24,000 nucleotides of DNA from an archaeon. GTDB lineage: Archaea > Nanobdellota > Nanobdellia > SCGC-AAA011-G17 > GW2011-AR20. The notes under the pieces are model-generated. The model worked only from the letters and a program-made list of their open reading frames with translations, was not told the DNA's origin and did not search any database. Shown here in pieces: positions 1,905 through 22,773 of the stretch. The translations under genes and the position numbers were made by a program. The stretch's first letter is position 1, and the number at the start of each line of letters is the position of its first letter. The stretch is from contig NYZO01000106.1 in NCBI GenBank assembly GCA_002687185.1, positions 10,013-34,012 on the forward strand, read 5' to 3'.

Positions 1905-1974
1905 GTTTAGTAGCAGTGTCTCTTTGAAAATGTTTGAAAAAGGGTATTTGTTATAGTATGTGCATAGAAAAATA

Positions 1975-3036
1975 ATGATAGATATTCAAATTTTTAATAA
2001 GATCGATCAAGCGCTCATGGGTATAGGTAAAGGATTAAAACCCCTCTCTTATTCTGAACCGACTAATGAACCAGAACAAAAAAGAAAATTCTTAGATGGA
2101 ACTATTCGTAATCCTAGTTTTTTGTATAAAGAACTTGAATACGATCCACAAGATGTTAAGGAAAGACTAAATGCTATTGAGATTCCTGACGGAAAATTAG
2201 GTAAGGTTTACGAGAAAAAAAGAAGGAACGCATTGCTTGAGAATAAAATTATTATACATAGAGGAGATGAAGATATTGTTAGAGAGTCTACGATTTTAAT
2301 GCACGGCTCTCCAGACCGTGAACTCGTTGAATATGCGGATTCGTTATTATTAAAAATTGATCCTATAATAATTAAAACCCCTCTTACGTCTGACATTGCG
2401 AGGGATGCGCTACAACAAGCCTTATATGGAAATGGTTTGACTGATTGGACGACTGAACTTTCAAAAAAGAAATCGACAACTGTGTATACTGGTGAGAAAA
2501 AAATGACTGTGTGTGAGGACAGAAAATTTTCTGAAGGCGCTATTAAAAGATTAAAAGTGCATGACATTATACATGCTCTAAGAGGTGCAAACGGCTACGC
2601 GCAACCGCTTAGTATATTTGTCCTTGGATTTCCAGGATACATGTCAACTGAGGAAGGACTTACCACATACTTTGAACAAATAACAGGTAATTCTAATGAC
2701 CAAATGAAAAGAGAATATGCAGCAAGAGTTATAGCTGTTGATTCAGTTTGTCAAGGTTTAAACTTTAGACGGGCTTTTAACAGATTGAAAGATTATGGTT
2801 TAACTGATAATAAAGCATGGGACACTGCGGTTAGAACATATAGAGCTGGTGGATATGTGAAAGATCATGTGTATCTTCAAGGGAATAGACTGATTTACGA
2901 ATTCGTAGAAAATGGTGGAGATATTAAAGAGCTATTTGTAGGCAAAATTGGAATTGATGATCTTCCATTAGTTAGAAGGCTTAGAGAAAAAGGAATAGTC
3001 AAAGAGCCAGTATACCTTCCAAGTTTTTTAGAGTAA
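1975..3036 (+). CDS. DUF1704 / MATCAP-like (QEGLA-motif family) putative metallocarboxypeptidase
   Basis: The track ORF starts at GTG 1960; the first ATG is at 1975. VHDIIHALRGANGYAQP followed by STEEGLTTYFEQ resembles the HEIxxHxxRxxNGxxQP ... QEGLA signature recalled for this family. The first His is followed by Asp rather than Glu. Function assigned from memory of motifs only. Confidence 0.5.
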   Translation: MIDIQIFNKIDQALMGIGKGLKPLSYSEPTNEPEQKRKFLDGTIRNPSFLYKELEYDPQDVKERLNAIEIPDGKLGKVYEKKRRNALLENKIIIHRGDEDIVRESTILMHGSPDRELVEYADSLLLKIDPIIIKTPLTSDIARDALQQALYGNGLTDWTTELSKKKSTTVYTGEKKMTVCEDRKFSEGAIKRLKVHDIIHALRGANGYAQPLSIFVLGFPGYMSTEEGLTTYFEQITGNSNDQMKREYAARVIAVDSVCQGLNFRRAFNRLKDYGLTDNKAWDTAVRTYRAGGYVKDHVYLQGNRLIYEFVENGGDIKELFVGKIGIDDLPLVRRLREKGIVKEPVYLPSFLE

Positions 3037-3049
3037 AGTTCTTTCTTAC

Positions 3050-3289
3050 TTAGTAAAACTCTTCCTCGTCAGAACCTGAACTCTCTTCTACAATTTCTTT
3101 AGGCTTTTCAACAGAACTTTTTTCAACCAAAGGACGCTCTAAAACAACCGAATCTTTAGAATCGTTTTTATTAACTTGACCGCTCAAATCAGTCAAACGC
3201 TCGTCAATTTTTTCTAATTTCCATTTAATCTGGTCAAACTCCTCTTTCACCTTAGCAAACGCTTTTTTTAACCGCTCTTCATCAATCAT
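3050..3289 (-). CDS. Small coiled-coil protein with acidic C-terminal tail (...SSGSDEEEFY), coupled to gyrA
   Basis: The track ORF is 3050..3316. An internal ATG at 3289 gives an 8-nt overlap (ATGATTGA) with the gyrA stop, suggesting translational coupling. No recognisable domain. Confidence 0.5.
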   Translation of the reverse strand: MIDEERLKKAFAKVKEEFDQIKWKLEKIDERLTDLSGQVNKNDSKDSVVLERPLVEKSSVEKPKEIVEESSGSDEEEFY

Positions 3290-6152
3290 TTTTATTCTCC
3301 TTATTGTTTGCATCACTTGTATGATGTATTATACGCGCGATACATTTTACTTTGTCCTCTTTTCTAAGCTTCATAATACGCACACCTTGAGTGCTACGGC
3401 CCATAGTACGTACACTGGATGTTGCAATACGTATAACAATACCCTTAGCACTGGTTATTAATAGTTCATCGTGATCCATCACTGTCTTTATACCAACAAC
3501 AGAACCGTTTCTCTCACTCGTCTTAATATTAGTAACACCTTTCCCACCGCGTTTAATCAACCGATATTGGTCCATATTTGTACGTTTTCCAAAGCCGTTC
3601 TCAGTTATCGTAAACAGTGTAGCATCAGTTCTTGCAACTTCCAAACCAATAACAGCATCACCCTCCTTTAAACGAATACCGCGAACACCGCTTGCAGTAC
3701 GACCCATTTTCCTAACATCAGTACTTTTAAACTTAATAGCCATACCTTTTTGAGTACATAACATAAACTGTAATTGCTCTGTACTCAAACGAGTTGTAAC
3801 TAACTGATCATCGCCACGTAAATTAATAGCACGAATACCACGCTTCATTGGACGAGAAAAAGAGGTAAGAGGGGTTTGTTTTAATACACCGTTTTTGGTG
3901 GCCATCATAACAGATACACGCTCGTAAAACTTAGCCACTGGTAACATTGCCGTAACTTTCTCGTCAGGTTGCATATTAATCAAATTAACCAAAGCCTTAC
4001 CACGACTGTAACGAGAGCTTTCAGGGATCTTATAAGTCTTTAACCAATGTACTCTGCCTTGATTAGTAAACAATAATATATAATAATGGCTGCTTGAAGT
4101 GAAAATCTGCTCAACAACGTCTTCGTCTTTAGTTTTAGAACTCATAATACCGACGCCGCCTCTATTTTGTTGTTTATATTCCTCTAAAGATAAACGTTTC
4201 AAATAACCGTCTCTTGTACACATAACAACAACGTTTTCTTCTGCAATCAAATCCTCTACCTCAAAATCTTCTTCTGAATCAATAACTTCAGTCCTGCGCT
4301 CGTCACCGTACTTGTCTCTTAACTCGGTTAACTCAGTCTTAATAATACCGTAACGACGATCTTTTGAACCTAAAATATCTTTTAATTCTGTAACAAGTTT
4401 GACTAATTCAGTTTTCTCGTCAGCTAGTTTCTTAGTTTCTAAGTTAGTTAACCTCTGTAAGCGCATATCGAGAATTGCTAAGCTTTGTTTTTCTGACAAT
4501 TTAAACTGTTCAATCAACCCAGTCTTTGCAACAACTGCGTCAGCGCTTGCTCTAATAAGTTTTACAACAGCGTCAATGTTTTGCAAAGCAATAAGCAGTC
4601 CATCAACGATATGCATCCGGTCTTCAGCCTTTTCTAATTCGAACTTAGTACGCCTTGTAACAACACTAAAACGATGTTTAATAAATTCCTCTAGTAAGCC
4701 TTTCAAACCCATAATCTTAGGCGCATTGTCAACAATAGATAACATGTTAGCACCGAATGTTACTTGTAGTTGCGTGTTTTTAAACAGCTGATTGACAATG
4801 ATCTCTTGGTTTTCGTTCTTTTTTAATTCAATAACAACACGCATTCCTTTGCGATCACTTTCGTCGCGGATATCACGGATACCCTCAATGCGTTTTTCTT
4901 TAACTAAATTAGCAATAGATTCTATCAATGTGGTTTTATTTACCGCGTACGGTATCTCGTCAATTATAACACGGTTTGGCTCAAACGACGTTTTACCCCT
5001 AACTCTAATCTTACCACGGCCAGTTTGGTACGCTTGAATAAGACCGGATCTCCCACAAATGATGCCGCCAGTAGGAAAATCAGGGCCAATGATCGTTTTA
5101 ATCAATTCGTCAACGTTAATATCAGGATTGTCGATCAACTGAATTGTCGTGTCAACAACGTTGGTCAAATTATGAGGAGGGATATTAGTAGCCATGCCAA
5201 CAGCAATGCCAGAAGTGCCATTAAGCAATAAATTAGGAACTTTTGCTGGCAGCACAGACGGTTCTTTTAAACTCTCGTCAAAGTTAGGTACAAATTTAAC
5301 TGTTTTCTTATCAATATCTTGCAGCATCTCTTCGGCAATACGGGTCATCTTTGCTTCAGTATATCTCTGGTGTGCAGCTGTATCCCCGTCTACCGAATTG
5401 TGGACAAACACCCCTGACGCTAAGGCAAAGTTATGGGTTCCGTCGATTGTAAGATCATAGACGTCTTCTTTTTGATTAAGGTACTCAACTCTTATTACTT
5501 TGTGATTGTGAAGTTTGGCTTGTTTTATTTTTAAGGACATAAGCGAATCATCTTTTTTTAGATTCTGAGCTTCCTTGTAAGAACCATCTCGTAACATAAA
5601 TCTATGATCGGGTGTACATTTGATCTCTTCTTTGTTATTTAAAGTTACTTTTATTAAAGATGCTGATTTTTTCGTCAAACGTGGCTTTTTTATTTCACCA
5701 GTTTGAACGAGTCCCTGGCCAGTTACTGTATAAGTATAATTCTTCTTTCCTTGATTGAATTCCTTTACTAAGTCTTTGAAGGATAATTTTCTTCCATCTG
5801 TTAATTCAACTTTTGTGTCACCTGTGAAACAACCGAAATTTCCTTGTCCGTTTACTAAGGGATAACGAAGAGAAAAATCTTGAGCCATTCTTACTAAAGC
5901 GTCATATACCGCAAGATCTCCGTGTGGATGAAAACGACCCAAAGTATCTCCGACGATCCTAGCACACTTTTTAAACGACTTATTTGGTTGCAGACCAAGT
6001 TTCAACATGGTATATAGTATCCTGCGGTGTACAGGTTTCAATCCGTCACGAACATCGGGCAAGGCACGAGACATGATAACAGACATGGCATAATCAATAT
6101 ACGCTTCTTTCATTTCGTCTTCAATCGGTTTGATAATTAAGTTTTCTGCCAT
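3282..6152 (-). CDS. gyrA: DNA gyrase subunit A, intein-containing precursor (956 aa; 811 aa after splicing)
   Basis: Motifs [25 protein letters not shown]...[17 protein letters not shown], plus C-terminal beta-pinwheel repeats. The GNFG/S junction is interrupted by an intein. Confidence 0.96.
5397..5831 (-). mobile_element. Mini-intein (145 aa, no homing-endonuclease domain) in GyrA
   Basis: Begins CFTGDTKV (Cys1, codon 5831-5829). Block B is CTPDHRF (T-x-x-H), block F is [12 protein letters not shown]. It ends VFVHN (5399-5397) and is followed by Ser+1. Removing it restores the contiguous GQGNFG-SVDGD motif. Confidence 0.85.
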
Positions 6153-14861: not shown

Positions 14862-14905
14862 TTTTTATTCCTCCACGTTTTAAGCCCGCATGGCTTTTTT
14901 AATAG

Positions 14906-14977
14906 GGCAGAAGCCGGGGATTGAACCCGGTCCGCAAGCTCCACAGGCTTGCATGCTACCATTACACCACAACTACC
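14906..14977 (-). tRNA. tRNA-His (anticodon GUG), copy 1, with encoded G-1
   Basis: Hand-folded cloverleaf: G-1 | GTAGTTG | TG | GTGT-AATGGTA-GCAT | G | CAAGC-CTGTGGA-GCTTG | CGGA | CCGGG-TTCAATC-CCCGG | CTTCTGC | C73. All arms pair except U5-U68 and U6-U67. No CCA is encoded. Confidence 0.78.
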
Positions 14978-16802: not shown

Positions 16803-17054
16803 TTAATCTTTTATTTCGTATAGATAATGTTTAATCTTCTCGTGCTTGTTACCTTTGGAAATAATGACAGCTGTATAATCATCCCTTCTAAAATAAGCGG
16901 CTCCGTCTGAGTCGGAGTTATATACCTGACCTAAGCCGGCATCTTTGTATCCCATGTCGTATACAACTTGTACCATCTGGAGTAAATTCGCTTTAGGATC
17001 AGTAGACACTAAGTTCTCTTCTAATAACTGACTTTTACTAATAGCCATAATCAT
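16803..17054 (-). CDS. Hypothetical protein (83 aa), first gene of the FNR-like/ferredoxin operon
   Basis: Intact ORF with a 1-nt gap to the FNR-like gene. No motif recognised. Confidence 0.45.
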   Translation of the reverse strand: MIMAISKSQLLEENLVSTDPKANLLQMVQVVYDMGYKDAGLGQVYNSDSDGAAYFRRDDYTAVIISKGNKHEKIKHYLYEIKD

Positions 17055-17098
17055 AAAAGGCTCACTTTAGGATTTTAAAAAGATTTGGAGTTTCTATC

Positions 17099-17734
17099 CT
17101 AAATATTTGAGACCTTAAACGCACTCGGACAAACTTTATTTATGAAACAGTTCTCACAATCCGGTTTTCTTGCTGTACATGTAGCTCTACCATGAGCTAT
17201 TAATAAATTAGTGAACGTTGTCCAATCCCTTTTGGGTAGTTCTTTCATTAATTCACGCTCAATAATGATTGCGTTCTTTGATTTAACCCATTTGAACCGG
17301 TTTGTTAATCGTATACAGTGTGTGTCAATTGCAATACCTTCAGTTATTCCAAACCCATGACTAAGCACTATATTAGCGGTTTTTCTAGCAACGCCGGGTA
17401 ATGTTAATAATTCGTCCATTGTCCTTGGCACTTTACTATTAAAATCATTTTCAATCTTTTTTGCGGTTGCAATAATATTCTTTGCTTTGTTACGGTAAAA
17501 ACCAGTAGATTTAACCAATATCTCTAAACGTTCTTGGGATACGTTTCCCAAGTCTTTTGGTGTTTGTAACTCTTTAAATAATTCTTTCGTTACGATATTA
17601 ACACGTTTGTCTGTACATTGCGCTGAAAGTATTGTAGCTACTAATAATTGGAATGGTGTGTCGTATCGTAGCGCTGTTTTTGGGACGCCGTAGTGTTGTT
17701 TTAGTAAGGTGAGGATTTCTGTTAGATATTCCAT
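17099..17734 (-). CDS. nth: Endonuclease III (Nth), HhH-GPD glycosylase with 4Fe-4S cluster
   Basis: HhH motif LPGVARKTANIVL, a catalytic-region Asp, and a C-terminal Cx6Cx2Cx5C motif (CTARKPDCENCFINKVC). Confidence 0.92.
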   Translation of the reverse strand: MEYLTEILTLLKQHYGVPKTALRYDTPFQLLVATILSAQCTDKRVNIVTKELFKELQTPKDLGNVSQERLEILVKSTGFYRNKAKNIIATAKKIENDFNSKVPRTMDELLTLPGVARKTANIVLSHGFGITEGIAIDTHCIRLTNRFKWVKSKNAIIIERELMKELPKRDWTTFTNLLIAHGRATCTARKPDCENCFINKVCPSAFKVSNI

Positions 17735-17754
17735 CGTGTTATGAACTAATCCGT

Positions 17755-17805
17755 AATATATATGATTTCTGGAATCTGATAACAGATTAACGATGTCTTT
17801 TTAAA
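17755..17805. promoter_or_regulatory. Divergent promoter region (two TATA-like boxes)
   Basis: AATATATAT (17755-17763) lies ~21 nt upstream of the nth ATG on the minus strand. TTTTTAAA (17798-17805) lies ~25 nt upstream of the ATG at 17830. The spacing suggests leaderless or short-leader mRNAs. Confidence 0.35.
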
Positions 17806-17829
17806 CCAACAGAGGGAAGTTTTCTTTAT

Positions 17830-18135
17830 ATGGCTTATCTTAAGGTTGAGTGGGAACAGTGGAAAGCAGGTGTACTTTACACGAGCCGTTTTAATCCATG
17901 GGTACATGCTATTGATGAATCGTCTGATATGTCGGTTAATTTTGAAGACTGTTTGATCTTTATTATGAGTCAGTTTAAAGAAGGGACGAAGTTGATTCCG
18001 TCTATGGGATACATGGAATTGGAAGTTACAGGGGATTTACCTGAAAAAGAAAAACTAGTTTTGGAAGGAATTGTTGAATTGTATAACAACGCCCCAATTT
18101 TATATGATACGTTTCTAACCCCAACGCTTAAATAA
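17830..18135 (+). CDS. Hypothetical protein (101 aa), first gene of the MinD-like cluster
   Basis: Intact ORF, 21 nt upstream of the next gene. No motif recognised. Confidence 0.45.
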   Translation: MAYLKVEWEQWKAGVLYTSRFNPWVHAIDESSDMSVNFEDCLIFIMSQFKEGTKLIPSMGYMELEVTGDLPEKEKLVLEGIVELYNNAPILYDTFLTPTLK

Positions 18136-18156
18136 AACCATTATTATAACGAACCT

Positions 18157-18726
18157 ATGCACGCACTAGTAAAAAAAGATATCTTGTCAATTCTAACCTC
18201 TGCCTCAAAAGCACTGAAACAATCAAACATAACTACTCTAAGACAATTAAGCGACCAAACACTTCATAACGCAAACATCTACCAAGACCCAGAAGCAATA
18301 ACTATTGCGGTTACCATGTACGCATTATTTAAAATTTATAGTCGACCCAATTACGCCAAATTACCAACTTGGACTACGTTCGACACTAATGTTAAAAATA
18401 ATCTACTACACGCAAAACAACATTTAGAAAAAAACGATTATTCAGAGTTTAGTACTTCTTTAAAAAACATAACAAGTATAATCGACAAACTAGACAAAAA
18501 ACTTCGAAGCTACTTAAAAGATGTAATTTACAGAGCCCACATCAGCAAAGCAAGTAGATTTTATGAACACGGCGTCTCAATTGGCAGAACCGCAGAACTG
18601 TTGGGCGTCACAAGATGGGAGCTCATGGACTACGTAGGAAAAACCGGCATCCCGGACAAGAAGTATAACATCACAAAAACTCCAAAACAGCGACTAAAAG
18701 AGGCAAAAGCGTTCTTTAATCAGTAA
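18157..18726 (+). CDS. Helical protein with C-terminal UPF0175-like HTH domain
   Basis: The C-terminus ASRFYEHGVSIGRTAELLGVTRWELMDYVGKTGIP resembles the UPF0175/COG2886 HTH family (…GKISLGKAAELAGMSxWEFxxLLxxxGIP). The N-terminal ~130 aa is helical, with weak similarity to the next two ORFs (DPxxIxIA...YxAxK). Confidence 0.5.
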   Translation: MHALVKKDILSILTSASKALKQSNITTLRQLSDQTLHNANIYQDPEAITIAVTMYALFKIYSRPNYAKLPTWTTFDTNVKNNLLHAKQHLEKNDYSEFSTSLKNITSIIDKLDKKLRSYLKDVIYRAHISKASRFYEHGVSIGRTAELLGVTRWELMDYVGKTGIPDKKYNITKTPKQRLKEAKAFFNQ

Positions 18727-18768
18727 AGCAACATAATCTTTAAAAAAATCAATCCCTTCTAAGAACTT

Positions 18769-19236
18769 ATGCAACAGCTCAAAGAATTAATCACTACTGC
18801 TAACAAACATATCAGAACTGCAGACCATTTAGCGTATATGACGTATCCTTTAATAAAAGACCCAAAACTCATCATCAAAATAGCAGAACATGTATACCAC
18901 GCAATGAAAGTAGGCATTGAAGCAGTAGTATTTTACGAGCGACTCTACAAACGAATTAGCCAAGTAGGAGACGAGTTCACAGCAAAATACGACTTATTCA
19001 AAACTAAATGCGCTAAAAGATACGCAATTGACAGCACCCAAATACTTGCTTTTGAAGATCTTAACACAATACTTAAAGAACATAAAGATAGTCAAGTCAG
19101 TTTTATAAGGGAACAAAAACTAGTTATTTGTTCTGATCAGTTCCAAAATATCCGAACATTAACCATAGAGAGAGTGAAAACCTTTTTAAACTTGGCAAAA
19201 CAGTTTATTGTCAAAACTAATCAGATAGTACGATGA
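18769..19236 (+). CDS. Hypothetical helical protein (155 aa), paralog pair A member 1
   Basis: Intact ORF. Its stop overlaps the next start (ATGA at 19233-19236). Shares sequence patterns with 19233-19661. Confidence 0.5.
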   Translation: MQQLKELITTANKHIRTADHLAYMTYPLIKDPKLIIKIAEHVYHAMKVGIEAVVFYERLYKRISQVGDEFTAKYDLFKTKCAKRYAIDSTQILAFEDLNTILKEHKDSQVSFIREQKLVICSDQFQNIRTLTIERVKTFLNLAKQFIVKTNQIVR

Positions 19237-19661
19237 ATGATACGCTTGATCTTACACGGTCCATAGAAGAGTTAAAGCGAGTGGACCATCAATATTTTGT
19301 AACGCTTAAGTATACAAGAACAGCGGACGTTATTTTAAACACTATCAAACGTATGATTTCAGCTATAGAATTCGGCGCTGATGATGTGCTAGCATATAAA
19401 TTAGCCAAAAACAAAATTAAAGAAGTACCACCGACTAATAAAGAGCGAGTGGAAATGTTACAGAAATTTGGCTTATTAGTAAAAGATGTCGAATTTTATA
19501 ATTTTTTGAAAAAGCTTGAGAGGGCAGAGTATAAAGGGGAAAATGAGTATAGGAAAGGAGTTGCTATGGTAACGTCTTTTGCAGAGGTGGATATTTTGGT
19601 GCTGGGTGAATATTTCGAACATACCCAAGCACTTATCGAAAAACTAATGAAAATAAAATGA
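19233..19661 (+). CDS. Hypothetical helical protein (142 aa), paralog pair A member 2
   Basis: Intact ORF with ATGA overlaps at both ends (19233-36 and 19658-61), so it is translationally coupled to the ATPase gene. Confidence 0.5.
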   Translation: MNDTLDLTRSIEELKRVDHQYFVTLKYTRTADVILNTIKRMISAIEFGADDVLAYKLAKNKIKEVPPTNKERVEMLQKFGLLVKDVEFYNFLKKLERAEYKGENEYRKGVAMVTSFAEVDILVLGEYFEHTQALIEKLMKIK

Positions 19662-20425
19662 CTAGATTCATCGCTTGTGTATCAGCCAAAGGAGGCGTGG
19701 GCAAAACCACGACCGCTATTAATTTAGGCATCGCACTCAACCAGTTCAAACGTGATGTTATTATTGTTGATGCAAATACAACCACACCAAGCGTTGGTGT
19801 TAGTCTTGGCACACCGTTAGTTGAAACAGGGTTGTATGACGCACTAAAGAACGGTGCTGTTGAAGATATAATCCATTATCATGATTCAGGTACCAAAGTT
19901 ATACCCTCACAATTAGACTTGAAAACACGTGAAGCAGTTAGTTTCGCGCAACTTAAACGGTTATTTACCTCACTTAAAGGCATGACTGATATTGCTCTAT
20001 TTGATTGTAGTGCGGGCGTGAGCAAAGAAGTGTCGTTTATTATGAAGTTAGTTGACGAATTATTGATTGTTACAACGCCTGACCCGACCAGTGTTACAGC
20101 AGCACTTAAAACAGTGCGCATGGCTGAGGAGATGGGCAAAGATATTGTGGGCATTGTTGTTACACGCAAAAAAGGCAAGCTTGATTTGAGCAAGTCTGAG
20201 ATTGAAGAGACAATGGGCTACCCTGTTATAAGCAGCATCCCAGAAGACGATTTTATAAGGCGCGCGCAGCACAATCAAAACGCGATCATAAGTCTGTATC
20301 CACGAGCTCCTGCGTCAATTGCTTATCGTAATTTAGCAGCGGTTGTTGTTGAGGAGCCGTATCATGAGCGTGTACCCAAAGACGGTATGTTAAAACGTGT
20401 TGTTAAAGCTATTCAAAACCGTTAA
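19658..20425 (+). CDS. MinD/ParA-family P-loop ATPase (archaeal MinD-like)
   Basis: Deviant Walker A with signature lysine (SAKGGVGKTTTAINLG). Walker A' and B regions are present (ALFDCSAG, ELLIVTTPD). The 255-aa size fits. The C-terminus GMLKRVVKAIQNR could form an amphipathic helix. Confidence 0.87.
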   Translation: MTRFIACVSAKGGVGKTTTAINLGIALNQFKRDVIIVDANTTTPSVGVSLGTPLVETGLYDALKNGAVEDIIHYHDSGTKVIPSQLDLKTREAVSFAQLKRLFTSLKGMTDIALFDCSAGVSKEVSFIMKLVDELLIVTTPDPTSVTAALKTVRMAEEMGKDIVGIVVTRKKGKLDLSKSEIEETMGYPVISSIPEDDFIRRAQHNQNAIISLYPRAPASIAYRNLAAVVVEEPYHERVPKDGMLKRVVKAIQNR

Positions 20426-20448
20426 AAAAGGAGATTATTATTACAAAC

Positions 20449-20805
20449 ATGCATACACAGATTAATATAAATAATGTTTTACACAAATTTAGAGAAGAGG
20501 TTGCTAATCAGTATAGAAGAGAACTTCGAGTAAGTTCATATAACCGAATGGAACATGGTTTTACAGGGGAAACTTTTTATCAGTTATATGAACAACGGGG
20601 AAGAATAGCTACATTTTTCGGGCGATCTAAAAAATCTTTAGTTGAGATTACTATGAAACAAACACATTTTCTTGAATCTGATGATAGAGCTCAAGTGTCG
20701 TTTTCGGTGAAATTGCCAGATAAGAAAATCCGCTCAAAAGCGAGGGAGTATTTAGCTGCTTACGGCGAAGAGAACCGAATCGAATTTGTTTTATTGAAAT
20801 CATAA
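20449..20805 (+). CDS. Hypothetical protein (118 aa), paralog pair B member 1
   Basis: Intact ORF with GGAG 15 nt upstream of the ATG, 23 nt after the ATPase stop. Shares YxLYEQ ... A[RQ][EK]YL ... E[EQ]NxxEF with 20945-21334. Confidence 0.5.
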   Translation: MHTQININNVLHKFREEVANQYRRELRVSSYNRMEHGFTGETFYQLYEQRGRIATFFGRSKKSLVEITMKQTHFLESDDRAQVSFSVKLPDKKIRSKAREYLAAYGEENRIEFVLLKS

Positions 20806-20944
20806 TAAGGCGAATCAAAGATCAAATCTAATGACGTTTGATGTTAATTGATACTGATCCGTATCGCGAGCATGTACTAAAGATGTCCAAGGTGTAATTG
20901 AAACGATTCGAAATAGTTAAAAAGAGTGGTTTTATAGGTTTATT

Positions 20945-21334
20945 ATGGAATCTCAAGCACCTGCTATAGATGGTCTTACTACTTATCAAGTATTATCTCT
21001 TATAGGTCAAGAAGAACAACATAATTTTAAAAGGACACTTGAACCTGGTAGAATTACTTCTAAAATGTTGAATAAAGAGAACTTAAGTGATGAAAAGTAT
21101 TGTTTATACGAACAGCCCAAAAGAGTATTTTTAATGAAACAACCTCTGAGCAATGGGAAGGTAATATTAGACGTAACTTTCCATACCAAAGAAACTCAAG
21201 ACAGGGAATGTCCACAGACTTTTAATTTGACCGTATATCATCCCGATTTTATAGACACCGCCCAAAAATACTTAAGGTTGCATGCAGAACAAAATCACAT
21301 GGAGTTTCATTTTTGTTTTAAAAAGTACTTTTAA
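20945..21334 (+). CDS. Hypothetical protein (129 aa), paralog pair B member 2
   Basis: Intact ORF. Collinear motif matches to 20449-20805. Confidence 0.5.
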   Translation: MESQAPAIDGLTTYQVLSLIGQEEQHNFKRTLEPGRITSKMLNKENLSDEKYCLYEQPKRVFLMKQPLSNGKVILDVTFHTKETQDRECPQTFNLTVYHPDFIDTAQKYLRLHAEQNHMEFHFCFKKYF

Positions 21335-21383
21335 TTAGTCGGGTAGACAAACCCTTATCTTCAAACTTAATACGAACGAACAC

Positions 21384-21392
21384 TTTATAAAA
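21384..21392 (+). promoter_or_regulatory. TATA box for tRNA-His copy 2
   Basis: TTTATAAAA centred ~29 nt upstream of the tRNA 5' end at 21417. Confidence 0.5.
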
Positions 21393-21416
21393 TATTATAT
21401 TCTATTTTTCTATCAT

Positions 21417-21489
21417 GGCGGTTGTAGTATAGTGGTTAGTATACAAGACTGTGGCTCTTGGGACCCGGGTTCGATTCCCGGCTTCCGCC
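21417..21489 (+). tRNA. tRNA-His (anticodon GUG), copy 2, with encoded G-1
   Basis: Hand-folded cloverleaf: G-1 | GCGGTTG | TA | GTAT-AGTGGTTA-GTAT | A | CAAGA-CTGTGGC-TCTTG | GGAC | CCGGG-TTCGATT-CCCGG | CTTCCGC | C73. The same U5-U68 and U6-U67 mismatches occur as in copy 1. Confidence 0.82.
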
Positions 21490-21510
21490 CTAACTTTCCT
21501 CAATATTGGT

Positions 21511-21547
21511 CATTGGCGATGCAAACTATTGTGCATTGGTAATGCAA
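21511..21547. promoter_or_regulatory. Direct repeat CATTGG-NN-ATGCAA x2 just upstream of the ATPase TATA box (candidate operator)
   Basis: CATTGGCGATGCAA (21511-24) and CATTGGTAATGCAA (21534-47) match at 12/14 with 23-bp periodicity. An internal inverted repeat ATGCA/TGCAT is also present. Confidence 0.35.
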
Positions 21548-21549
21548 GC

Positions 21550-21557
21550 TTTTATAT
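21550..21557 (+). promoter_or_regulatory. TATA box for the AAA+ ATPase gene
   Basis: TTTATATA ends 23 nt before ATG 21580, consistent with a leaderless or near-leaderless transcript. Confidence 0.5.
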
Positions 21558-21579
21558 AGTAGTAGATCTTAGAATTACT

Positions 21580-22773
21580 ATGGTCTTAAAACAGGACATC
21601 AGAGAAACACTCAAAAAACAGATATCTGATCTAAATAAAAAGGAGAGTGGCATAAAGAGAGAAATATTAAAAAAAATTGACTTAGACGTCCCTCATGCGA
21701 TAATTGTCTCGGGCATTAGGAGATGTGGAAAAAGTACGTTATTGCATCAACTTATGAAAAAGAGCGTTTACTACTTTAATTTTGAAGATCCTAGAGTTTT
21801 AAGTTTTAAAGTGAGTGATTTTGAAAAATTAAAAGAAATATTCATTGAGGTATTCGGTGAAAAAAAGATTTATTTTTTAGATGAGATCCAAAATGTCCCT
21901 AATTGGGAAGTTTTTGTAAGATCTGAGATGGATAGCGGAAAAAAGTTTGTGATAACCGGGTCTAATGCAACACTTTTAAGTAAAGAACTTGGAACAAGAT
22001 TAACAGGAAGATATTTGAGGTATGAATTATATCCTTTTTCCTATAAAGAGTTTTTACAATTTACAAAAAAGAAAGCTTCAAAAGATTCCTTACGAAAGTA
22101 TATGGAAAAAGGAGGTTTTCCTGAATATCTAAAGTATGACAACAGTGATATCCTTCGTGATTTATTGGATAGTGTCATTACAAGAGACGTTTTGGTTAGA
22201 AATAATATTCGAGAAGCCGATCAAGTAAAAAAAATTTGTATCTATCTTTTGTCAAACATTGGAAAACAGTTTTCACTAAACAAGTTAACGAAACATTTTG
22301 GTATAGGTTCTGTTAACACCGTACGTTCTTATATTTCTTTTTTCGAGGATAGTTATTTGTTATTTACGGTCCCAAAATTTGATTATTCTTTTAAAAAACA
22401 GATCGTAAATCCTAAGAAGATTTATTCTATTGATGTAGGATTATCAACAGCAAATTCTATTTCATTCTCAAAAGATAAAGGCCGAATTTTAGAAAATCTC
22501 GTGTTTTTACATCTCAAACGAAAATATGACGAAATATTCTACTATAAAAATAAATCTGAATGTGATTTTGTTGTAAAAGATAAAGATAAGATTTTGTTCT
22601 GTGTACAGGTTTGTTTTATAGTAAATGAAGATAACAAAATGAGAGAATCAAATGGATTAAAAGAAGCTATGCAAGATTTAAATGTTAAAAAAGGTTTTAT
22701 AATTACCTTTGATCAAGAGGATATTATTGATGATATACCATTAATCCCTGCATGGCGTTGGTTCAGCACCTGA
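21580..22773 (+). CDS. AAA+ ATPase of the COG1373 / DUF4143 type (ATPase plus C-terminal nuclease-fold-like domain)
   Basis: Walker A GIRRCGKST and Walker B IYFLDEIQ. The C-terminal region with ...YYKNKSECDFVV... is typical of this family. The track ORF (GTG 21451) reads through the tRNA, so I used ATG 21580 downstream of the TATA box. Confidence 0.82.
   Translation: MVLKQDIRETLKKQISDLNKKESGIKREILKKIDLDVPHAIIVSGIRRCGKSTLLHQLMKKSVYYFNFEDPRVLSFKVSDFEKLKEIFIEVFGEKKIYFLDEIQNVPNWEVFVRSEMDSGKKFVITGSNATLLSKELGTRLTGRYLRYELYPFSYKEFLQFTKKKASKDSLRKYMEKGGFPEYLKYDNSDILRDLLDSVITRDVLVRNNIREADQVKKICIYLLSNIGKQFSLNKLTKHFGIGSVNTVRSYISFFEDSYLLFTVPKFDYSFKKQIVNPKKIYSIDVGLSTANSISFSKDKGRILENLVFLHLKRKYDEIFYYKNKSECDFVVKDKDKILFCVQVCFIVNEDNKMRESNGLKEAMQDLNVKKGFIITFDQEDIIDDIPLIPAWRWFST

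What the first reader, a model, noticed from the sequence alone, without database searches (positions are those of the whole stretch)
17830..21334. Uncharacterised seven-gene cluster built around a MinD/ParA ATPase, with an HTH protein and two tandem paralog pairs
All genes are on the plus strand and tightly packed. The order is a 101-aa ORF, a 189-aa helical protein ending in a UPF0175-like HTH, two helical proteins (155 and 142 aa), a deviant-Walker-A ATPase, then two further small proteins (118 and 129 aa). The two helical proteins are joined to each other and to the ATPase by ATGA overlaps. None of the six partner proteins matches a family I recognise apart from the HTH. ParA/MinD ATPases work with small adaptor or DNA-binding partners, as in ParB, SegB and AspA in archaeal segregation systems and MinE-like or cargo adaptors elsewhere. 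The architecture therefore reads as a novel positioning or segregation-type module. The HTH protein could be the DNA or cargo adaptor and the duplicated small proteins could be regulators or cargo. Its chromosomal setting is between nth and a tRNA gene, with scpA and gyrase nearby.
Basis: partly seen in the sequence, partly recalled or inferred. Interest (0 to 1): 0.76.

Follow-up and report, generated by a model that had tools for sequence, protein, structure and literature searches.

The report
MinD ATPase with two helical partners
The seven genes are real, but only three belong together: an archaeal MinD positioning ATPase and two related, undescribed helical proteins, a trio kept in many tiny DPANN archaea that gives the first good candidates for an archaeal MinD partner.

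Summary
All seven plus-strand ORFs exist at the stated coordinates, with both ATGA overlaps. They are not one seven-gene system. Comparative genomics supports a three-gene core: a 155-aa protein ("A2"), a 142-aa protein ("A1") and MinD. A1 and A2 are remote paralogs (hhalign 95.9%). They belong to an unannotated family found in at least 574 species-level DPANN genomes. The A1 model is confident (pLDDT 88.7). Its best solved-structure matches are HEPN domains, but weakly (E 0.05-0.3), and the HEPN Rx4-6H motif is absent.

In 80 species loci, A2 sits directly upstream of A1 in 71 of 79. MinD sits directly downstream in 47 of 78, mostly overlapping. All 8 MinD relatives I looked up have an A1 gene directly upstream. 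NAC lies upstream in 71 of 80. The ATPase is archaeal-type MinD, with a deviant Walker A and a C-terminal amphipathic helix like the bacterial membrane anchor.

The HTH protein belongs to a separate DPANN family. Elsewhere it pairs with a DUF3368 (PIN-like) gene, not MinD. The 101-, 118- and 129-aa ORFs are orphans. The 129-aa gene arose by a ~495-bp tandem duplication that also copied the MinD 3' end. No centromere-like repeats were found.

Verdict: partly supported. This is a new variant of a MinD/partner module, of moderate interest.

The parts
18769..19236 (+). A2: 155-aa helical protein, the diverged paralog of A1. First gene of the conserved core operon.
   Evidence: ORF. Remote paralogy to the 142-aa protein: hhalign 95.9%, E 5e-9. 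Directly upstream of A1 in 71 of 79 species loci. Conserved ADH..T motif. Weak PADLOC hit to a CARF_HEPN_TM model, E 0.0025.
19233..19661 (+). A1: 142-aa helical-bundle protein with HEPN-like fold similarity, from an undescribed DPANN family. Proposed MinD partner.
   Evidence: ATGA overlaps at both ends. AF2 pLDDT 88.7. Foldseek top hits are HEPN domains: prob 0.9-1.0, TM 0.5-0.6, E 0.05-0.3. 469 clusters at 50% identity. At least 574 species genomes. Nearly invariant E13 R16 H19 K26 Y27 T28 R29 T30 D32 R40 E105 R107.
19658..20425 (+). Archaeal-type MinD ATPase (deviant Walker A) with a C-terminal amphipathic helix.
   Evidence: TIGR01969 at 180 bits; next best is bacterial MinD at 78 bits. 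PDB best hits 1HYQ, 1ION and 1G3Q, all archaeal MinD. SAKGGVGKTT motif, and tail GMLKRVVKAIQNR with hydrophobic moment 0.80. All 8 relatives looked up have an A1 gene directly upstream.
18739..18748 (+). TATA-like TTTAAAAAAA about 25 nt upstream of the A2 start codon. Possible separate promoter for the A2-A1-MinD operon (inference only).
   Evidence: Read directly from the sequence. No archaeal promoter tool was available.
18157..18726 (+). 189-aa protein: N-terminal helical domain plus a C-terminal UPF0175-like HTH. A conserved DPANN family, probably not part of the MinD unit.
   Evidence: PF03683 E 2e-4, below cutoff. 95 homologs at 37-58% identity. Followed by DUF3368 genes in L009, L010 and L095. 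Adjacent to A2 only in L001-L005. AF2 pLDDT 82.5, with no informative fold match.
17830..18135 (+). 101-aa orphan ORF.
   Evidence: No family hit. No homolog in 90 loci. Cluster of one member.
20449..20805 (+). 118-aa orphan ORF, paralog of the 129-aa ORF.
   Evidence: BLASTP E 2e-5 to the 129-aa ORF. Only the same organism was found in the metagenome scan. Nothing in the viral scan.
20850..20925 (+). Degraded copy of the MinD 3' end inside the 118/129 spacer. A scar of a ~495-bp tandem duplication.
   Evidence: Direct repeat 20394-20428 / 20889-20923, 74% identical. Spacer frames read ...DPYREHVLK... and ...VQGVIETIRNS*, against the MinD tail ...EPYHERVPKDGMLKRVVKAIQNR*. DNA alignment of the two units.
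20945..21334 (+). 129-aa orphan ORF, the duplicated copy of the 118-aa gene.

Best explanation
The locus is a mosaic. Its functional core is a three-gene operon, A2 (155 aa), A1 (142 aa) and MinD (255 aa), joined by overlapping stop and start codons.

Shown:
- A1 and A2 are ancient paralogs of an unannotated family. Every hit that carries a taxon label is DPANN.
- A1 is predicted with confidence as a helical bundle that most resembles HEPN domains, but it lacks their catalytic motif.
- The pair is almost always adjacent, and an archaeal-type MinD gene usually follows, often overlapping.
- The MinD has a deviant Walker A and a C-terminal amphipathic helix like the bacterial MinD membrane anchor.

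Inferred:
- A1 and A2 form a heterodimer. In lineages with a single copy, A1 would form a homodimer.
- This dimer is the cognate partner of MinD.
- ATP-bound MinD dimers attach to the membrane through the C-terminal helix.
- MinD recruits A1/A2, or is regulated by it, in the way MinE/MinC or ParB-type partners work with their ATPases. The result would be to position a cellular structure.

The cargo is unknown. Candidates are the FtsZ division apparatus, or something linked to protein biogenesis, because NAC and Sec61-beta are the conserved upstream neighbours.

The other four genes are passengers. The HTH gene belongs to a separate family that normally pairs with a DUF3368 (PIN-like) gene. The 101-, 118- and 129-aa ORFs are strain-specific orphans, and the last arose by a local tandem duplication.
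For: Core conservation, A1 side: in 80 species-representative genomes, A2 is directly upstream in 71 of 79. MinD is directly downstream in 47 of 78, and about 34 of those 47 overlap or lie within 3 nt.

Core conservation, MinD side: 8 of 8 MinD relatives at 40-65% identity have an A1-family gene directly upstream (HMM checks).

Paralogy: hhalign 95.9%.

Fold: pLDDT 88.7, with HEPN chains filling most of the top Foldseek ranks.

MinD identity.

Amphipathic tail: it is conserved across most orthologs (GFFSKLLKKFG-like; window GMLKRVVKAIQNR, hydrophobic moment 0.80).

ATGA overlaps.

Passenger status of the other genes. Duplication scar.
Against: No physical interaction was tested. A multimer prediction could not be run.

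MinD is absent from the 5-kb downstream flank in 25 of 78 A1 loci, so A1/A2 can be encoded without an adjacent MinD.

NAC is linked to A2/A1 at least as tightly as MinD is: 71 of 80 loci, median gap 34 nt. Some of this could be inherited synteny within one archaeal order.

The window's MinD scores 180 bits, below the TIGR01969 cutoff of 201.75.
Confidence: 0.5

Rival explanations
1. A2/A1 belong functionally with NAC and Sec61-beta, in ribosome-associated or protein-targeting functions. The MinD gene is a syntenic housekeeping neighbour with no mechanistic link.
For: NAC is upstream of A2/A1 in 71 of 80 loci, with a median gap of 34 nt and 10 overlaps. Sec61-beta is present in 56 of 80. MinD is missing downstream in 25 of 78. 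Some A1 members carry long Lys-rich tails typical of nucleic-acid or ribosome binders.
Against: In the window lineage, NAC and Sec61-beta are gone from the neighbourhood, yet A2-A1-MinD stays intact with ATGA overlaps. All 8 MinD relatives keep A1 directly upstream. About 34 of 47 A1-MinD junctions overlap or nearly touch.
Confidence: 0.25
2. One reading: a seven-gene ParA-type segregation or positioning module. The HTH protein would be the DNA or cargo adaptor, and the small duplicated proteins would be regulators or cargo.
For: All seven genes are co-oriented and tightly packed. HTH-A2-A1-MinD adjacency is kept in two related lineages at about 57% HTH identity.
Against: The HTH family pairs with DUF3368 genes, with no MinD nearby, in 3 of 3 distant relatives. 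It is absent from all 80 A1 loci. The 101-, 118- and 129-aa ORFs are unique to this organism. No repeat arrays were found in or around the cluster. The MinD has a membrane-anchor-like tail rather than ParA-like features.
Confidence: 0.05
3. A1/A2 is a HEPN-type RNase toxin-antitoxin or defence pair that happens to sit next to MinD.
For: The Foldseek top hits are HepT-type HEPN toxins. There is a weak PADLOC CARF_HEPN_TM hit for A2. A PDC-S01-like ATPase lies 250 bp downstream of the cluster.
Against: There is no Rx4-6H motif. There is no MNT partner. The pair sits in the same place, among housekeeping genes, in at least 574 species, which is unlike mobile TA or defence genes. No HEPN, PADLOC or PHROG model matches at a significant level.
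Confidence: 0.07

Closest known systems
Archaeal MinD (TIGR01969; Haloferax volcanii MinD2/MinD4; structures 1HYQ, 1ION, 1G3Q)
   Same: It has a deviant Walker A ATPase of the same length and domain layout. TIGR01969 is its best family by more than 100 bits. Its closest solved structures are archaeal MinDs. As with H. volcanii MinD2 and HVO_0596, a small protein of unknown function shares the operon (PMC11588486).
   Different: The host is a DPANN archaeon, whereas that paper states that only Euryarchaeota encode MinD. The partners lie upstream and are a paralogous helical pair. I did not compare them with HVO_0596. The window protein scores just below the curated cutoff.
Bacterial MinCDE system
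   Same: Both have a MinD-type ATPase with a C-terminal amphipathic helix resembling the membrane-targeting sequence (the E. coli comparison rests on my own knowledge). Both encode small partner proteins in the same operon.
   Different: There is no MinC or MinE homolog. The partners have a different fold, a HEPN-like bundle. No oscillation or link to FtsZ has been shown.
HEPN domain proteins (HepT/MntA-HepT, TT1696, ST0689, sacsin HEPN)
   Same: The A1 model's best solved-structure matches are these chains: prob 0.9-1.0, TM 0.5-0.6. Like HEPN proteins, A1/A2 is a small helical unit that probably dimerises.
   Different: The Rx4-6H motif is absent. The conserved residues lie instead in helix 1, the helix 1-2 loop and a beta hairpin that HEPN domains lack. 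No sequence model matches. There is no MNT partner. The genes sit in a fixed housekeeping context.
UPF0175/DUF3368 (VapBC-like) gene pairs
   Same: The 189-aa protein ends in a UPF0175-like HTH. Its relatives are followed by an overlapping DUF3368 gene.
   Different: It has an extra 125-residue N-terminal helical domain with no fold match. It is conserved at 37-58% identity across DPANN, like a housekeeping gene. No DUF3368 gene is present in the window.
Archaeal ParA-type segregation systems (SegAB, AspA-ParB-ParA)
   Same: Both combine a Walker-type ATPase with small adjacent proteins, one of which carries an HTH.
   Different: The ATPase here is MinD-type. The link to the HTH gene is not conserved. 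No centromere-like repeats were found.

Membership tests
Archaeal MinD (TIGR01969 minD_arch) | Score at or above the curated family cutoff | tested here: inconclusive
   180.4 bits against a cutoff of 201.75. It is still the best family by more than 100 bits. Many 40-48% identical relatives are named 'cell division ATPase MinD' by NCBI.
Archaeal MinD (TIGR01969 minD_arch) | Deviant Walker A KGGxGK[ST] with the signature lysine | tested here: met
   SAKGGVGKTT at residues 8-17.
Archaeal MinD (TIGR01969 minD_arch) | Closest solved structures are archaeal MinDs, not Mrp/NBP35, CooC or NifH | tested here: met
   1HYQ E 3e-33, 1ION and 1G3Q come first, then FleN/FlhG and bacterial MinD. Mrp reaches only 49 bits.
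Bacterial-type Min system (MinCDE) | C-terminal amphipathic membrane-targeting helix on MinD | tested here: met
   GMLKRVVKAIQNR has a hydrophobic moment of 0.80. Similar tails occur in most orthologs. Membrane binding itself was not tested.
Bacterial-type Min system (MinCDE) | MinC and/or MinE encoded with MinD | tested here: not met
   No MinC or MinE family hit for any neighbour.
ParABS / SegAB-type segregation module | Centromere-like repeat array next to the operon | tested here: not met
   Only scattered two-copy, chance-level repeats in 17000-21600.
ParABS / SegAB-type segregation module | DNA-binding adaptor gene conserved next to the ATPase | tested here: not met
   The HTH gene is adjacent only in L001-L005. 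It is absent from 80 A1 loci and elsewhere pairs with DUF3368.
HEPN superfamily | Helical-bundle HEPN fold | tested here: inconclusive
HEPN superfamily | Rx4-6H catalytic motif at the start of the last core helix | tested here: not met
   The conserved residues are E13, R16, H19, K26-T30, D32, R40, E105 and R107. None form an R-x(4-6)-H.
HEPN superfamily | Match to HEPN sequence models | tested here: not met
   No Pfam HEPN or DUF86 hit for any of the 18 members scanned. The only hint is a weak PADLOC CARF_HEPN_TM hit for A2, E 0.0025.
UPF0175 (PF03683) antitoxin-like HTH | Pfam gathering score | tested here: not met
   21.4 bits against a cutoff of 27.9. Six homologs carry a precomputed PF03683 hit.
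UPF0175 (PF03683) antitoxin-like HTH | Adjacent DUF3368 (PIN-like) partner gene | tested here: not met
   Present in relatives L009, L010 and L095. Not present in the window.

The most novel reading that the evidence does not exclude
A1/A2 are the missing cognate partners of archaeal MinD, the functional counterpart of MinE/MinC or ParB built on a HEPN-like scaffold. With the membrane-anchored MinD, and with the conserved NAC and Sec61-beta neighbours, they would form a DPANN-specific system. That system would position the division machinery or the protein-export machinery at the membrane.
Probability: 0.2. Interest if true: 0.75.

Novelty: new variant of a known kind. Interest (0 to 1): 0.55.

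Why it matters
The partners and cargo of archaeal MinD proteins are largely unknown. In the only organism studied, Haloferax volcanii, MinDs do not place FtsZ, and the one operon partner tested had no phenotype (PMC11588486, PMC7613921). The same source states that MinD is confined to Euryarchaeota.

This work shows an archaeal-type MinD with a bacterial-like membrane anchor that is widespread in DPANN archaea. It is encoded directly after one or two members of an unannotated protein family found in at least 574 species. That gives concrete candidates for binding and ATPase assays.

This avoids effort on four passenger genes.

Tried and rejected
- Centromere-like repeats: none in 17000-21600.
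- ncRNA in the 139-nt spacer: no Rfam hit, and the fold z-score is 0.27.
- MinD fusions (Rosetta stone): the long A1 homologs (P0241, P0248, P0256, P0268) have no Pfam domain. Their extra length is low-complexity, Lys-rich sequence.
- Basic tails replacing MinD: the two do not correlate (Fisher p 0.44).
- An alternative conserved downstream partner where MinD is absent: the genes there are mixed (VKOR, SufB, HisRS).
- Bromodomain lead: the 120-sequence A1 profile weakly hits TAF1 and other bromodomains (E 0.017-0.1). No bromodomain appears in the fold search, and the matched segment is predicted as a beta hairpin. I treated it as spurious.
- Defence or phage origin: nothing significant in PADLOC or PHROGs for the six partners. 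The viral fold search and viral contig scan were empty.
- Two tRNA-His genes as integration scars: they are different genes, with 81% column identity in an alignment that included about 20 nt of flank on each side.
- HTH N-terminal domain: no relation to A1 or A2 and no solved-structure match.
Full report
**Observation**

An independent gene call on the public contig gives the same seven genes. That contig is ENA ERZ11848503 NODE_2257. The proteins are also deposited as NCBI MAF37047-MAF37053, from an 'archaeon' Tara Oceans MAG. The host is an archaeon: RpoE/Rpb7, eIF2-gamma and S24e are present. The closest relatives of every gene come from Nanoarchaeota, Woesearchaeota or Pacearchaeota. Both ATGA overlaps are real. 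The flanks are as described: nth, tRNA-His, scpA and gyrA/gyrB.

**The ATPase**

- The 255-aa protein matches archaeal MinD (TIGR01969) at 180 bits. This is below the curated cutoff of 201.75. It is far above bacterial MinD (78 bits), ParA (57 bits) and Mrp (49 bits).
- Its nearest solved structures are the archaeal MinDs 1HYQ, 1ION and 1G3Q.
- It carries the deviant Walker A SAKGGVGKTT.
- Its last residues, GMLKRVVKAIQNR, form an amphipathic segment with a hydrophobic moment of 0.80.
- Most orthologs end in similar GFFSKLLKKFG-like tails. From my own knowledge, these resemble the bacterial MinD membrane-targeting helix.

**The two helical proteins**

- BLASTP sees no similarity between the 155-aa (A2) and 142-aa (A1) proteins.
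- Profile-profile comparison aligns them end to end: 95.9% probability, E 5e-9, 149 columns.
- They share an 'aDH..y.T' motif on helix 1.
- Neither matches any Pfam, NCBIfam, PADLOC or PHROG family at a significant level.
- An AlphaFold2 model of A1, built on 18 homologs, is confident: pLDDT 88.7, pTM 0.85. It has four helices, a beta hairpin and a C-terminal helix.
- Against the PDB, HEPN chains fill most of the top ranks: HepT toxins, TT1696, ST0689 and sacsin HEPN. Probabilities are 0.9-1.0 and TM-scores 0.5-0.6, but E-values are only 0.05-0.3.
- The HEPN Rx4-6H motif is absent.
- The nearly invariant residues are E13, R16, H19, K26-Y-T-R-T30, D32, R40, E105 and R107.
- I therefore describe the fold as HEPN-like and do not file the family as HEPN.
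- A weak sequence resemblance to bromodomains (E 0.017) is not backed by the fold search and is probably spurious.

**Distribution and neighbourhood**

An exhaustive HMMER search finds 469 clusters at 50% identity for the A1 profile. A scan of species-representative genomes finds at least 574 genomes that encode it. Nearly all of the best 80 are labelled Woesearchaeota, Nanoarchaeota or Nanoarchaeia. A few MAGs carry other labels, such as 'uncultured Methanosarcinales' or plain 'archaeon'.

In the best 80 loci:

| Feature | Count |
|---|---|
| A2 directly upstream of A1 | 71 of 79 |
| MinD directly downstream of A1 | 47 of 78 |
| Of those, overlapping or within 3 nt | about 34 |
| MinD elsewhere within 5 kb | 6 |
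| MinD absent from the flank | 25 |
| NAC upstream (median gap 34 nt) | 71 of 80 |
| Sec61-beta upstream | 56 of 80 |
| Full string Sec61-beta, NAC, A2, A1, MinD | 31 of 80 |

From the MinD side, all eight relatives I looked up (40-65% identity) have an A1-family gene directly upstream. Four Pacearchaeota-like loci have A1 only, with no A2. Where MinD is missing, the downstream genes are mixed. Some A1 members carry long Lys-rich tails. These tails do not correlate with loss of MinD.

**The other four genes**

- The 189-aa protein belongs to a well-conserved DPANN family: 95 homologs at 37-58% identity. It has a UPF0175-like C-terminal HTH that scores below threshold.
- Its N-terminal helical domain is modelled with confidence (pLDDT 82.5) but has no informative fold match.
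- It is adjacent to A2-A1-MinD only in the window and its two closest relatives.
- In three more distant relatives, an overlapping DUF3368 (PIN-like) gene follows it, and no MinD is nearby.
- It is absent from all 80 A1 loci.
- The 101-, 118- and 129-aa ORFs have no relatives in 90 loci, one metagenome scan or one viral scan (the two scans used only the 118/129 pair as query). Their 90% clusters hold one or two sequences.
- The 118/129 pair are true paralogs.
- The 139-nt spacer between them contains a decayed copy of the MinD 3' end. The 129-aa gene therefore arose by a ~495-bp tandem duplication of the MinD tail plus the 118-aa gene.
- No centromere-like repeats and no ncRNA were found.

**Interpretation**

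The conserved unit is A2-A1-MinD, not seven genes. I consider the following most likely, with confidence about 0.5. A1/A2 forms a dimer that is the cognate partner of a membrane-binding MinD. It would act as an adaptor, a cargo or an ATPase regulator. The shown steps are conservation, translational coupling, paralogy, the fold prediction and the MinD motifs. The interaction, the membrane binding and the cargo are all inferred.

The main rival, at about 0.25, is that A1/A2 work with NAC and Sec61-beta, and that MinD is only a syntenic neighbour.

**Context in the literature**

Archaeal MinD function has been studied only in Haloferax volcanii. There MinDs do not position FtsZ, and the operon partner of MinD2 showed no phenotype. 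MinD is said to be restricted to Euryarchaeota (PMC11588486; PMC7613921). In four literature searches I found no description of the A1/A2 family or of its link to MinD.

**Verdict**

This is a new variant of a known kind: a MinD ATPase with a new partner family. Interest is 0.55.

Noticed in passing
window 20806-20944 (with 20394-20428): The spacer between the 118- and 129-aa ORFs holds a decayed, frameshifted copy of the last ~25 codons of MinD. This shows a ~495-bp tandem duplication that created the 129-aa gene.
   Followed up: yes
window 21580-22773 (+): A 397-aa AAA_14/DUF4143 ATPase lies just after tRNA-His. It matches the PADLOC candidate defence family PDC-S01 at E 4e-114. The ORF list extends it to a GTG at 21451 that overlaps the tRNA, which is probably a false start.
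   Followed up: partly
window 14905-14976 (-) and 21418-21490 (+): There are two tRNA-His(GTG) genes within 6.5 kb in a small DPANN genome. They are distinct genes (81% column identity in an alignment that included about 20 nt of flank on each side), not an integration duplicate. One lies next to hisS and a HisG/PRA-PH gene.
   Followed up: partly
window 3282-6152 (-): GyrA carries an intein: Intein_splicing domain at residues 117-252, E 1e-17.
   Followed up: no
window 1960-3036 (+): A 358-aa protein matches the MATCAP (microtubule-associated tyrosine carboxypeptidase, PF08014) family at E 6e-49. This is unexpected in a DPANN archaeon.
   Followed up: no
L009 5001-6250, L010 5001-6284, L095 5001-6238: A conserved DPANN gene pair. 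A 188-aa protein (helical domain plus UPF0175-like HTH) overlaps a ~225-aa DUF3368 (PIN-like) protein. The pair is conserved like a housekeeping gene rather than a mobile toxin-antitoxin.
   Followed up: partly
L037, L040, L058, L066 (A1 genes of 209 aa); P0241, P0248, P0256, P0268: Some A1-family members carry 60-250-residue Lys-rich, histone-H1-like C-terminal tails. This suggests binding to nucleic acid or acidic membrane.
   Followed up: partly
L006-L008, L011-L094 (loci around A1/MinD): Archaeal-type MinD with a bacterial-like amphipathic C-terminus is widespread in DPANN. A 2024 paper states that only Euryarchaeota encode MinD (PMC11588486). The string Sec61-beta, NAC, A2, A1, MinD recurs in 31 of 80 species, and nth was also seen just upstream in two of the relatives looked up (L006, L093).
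   Followed up: partly
window 18123-18154 and 20417-20448: A similar 32-nt sequence (ATTATTATWAC-AAC just before the ATG) precedes both the HTH gene and the 118-aa gene. It may be a shared promoter or leader element.
   Followed up: no
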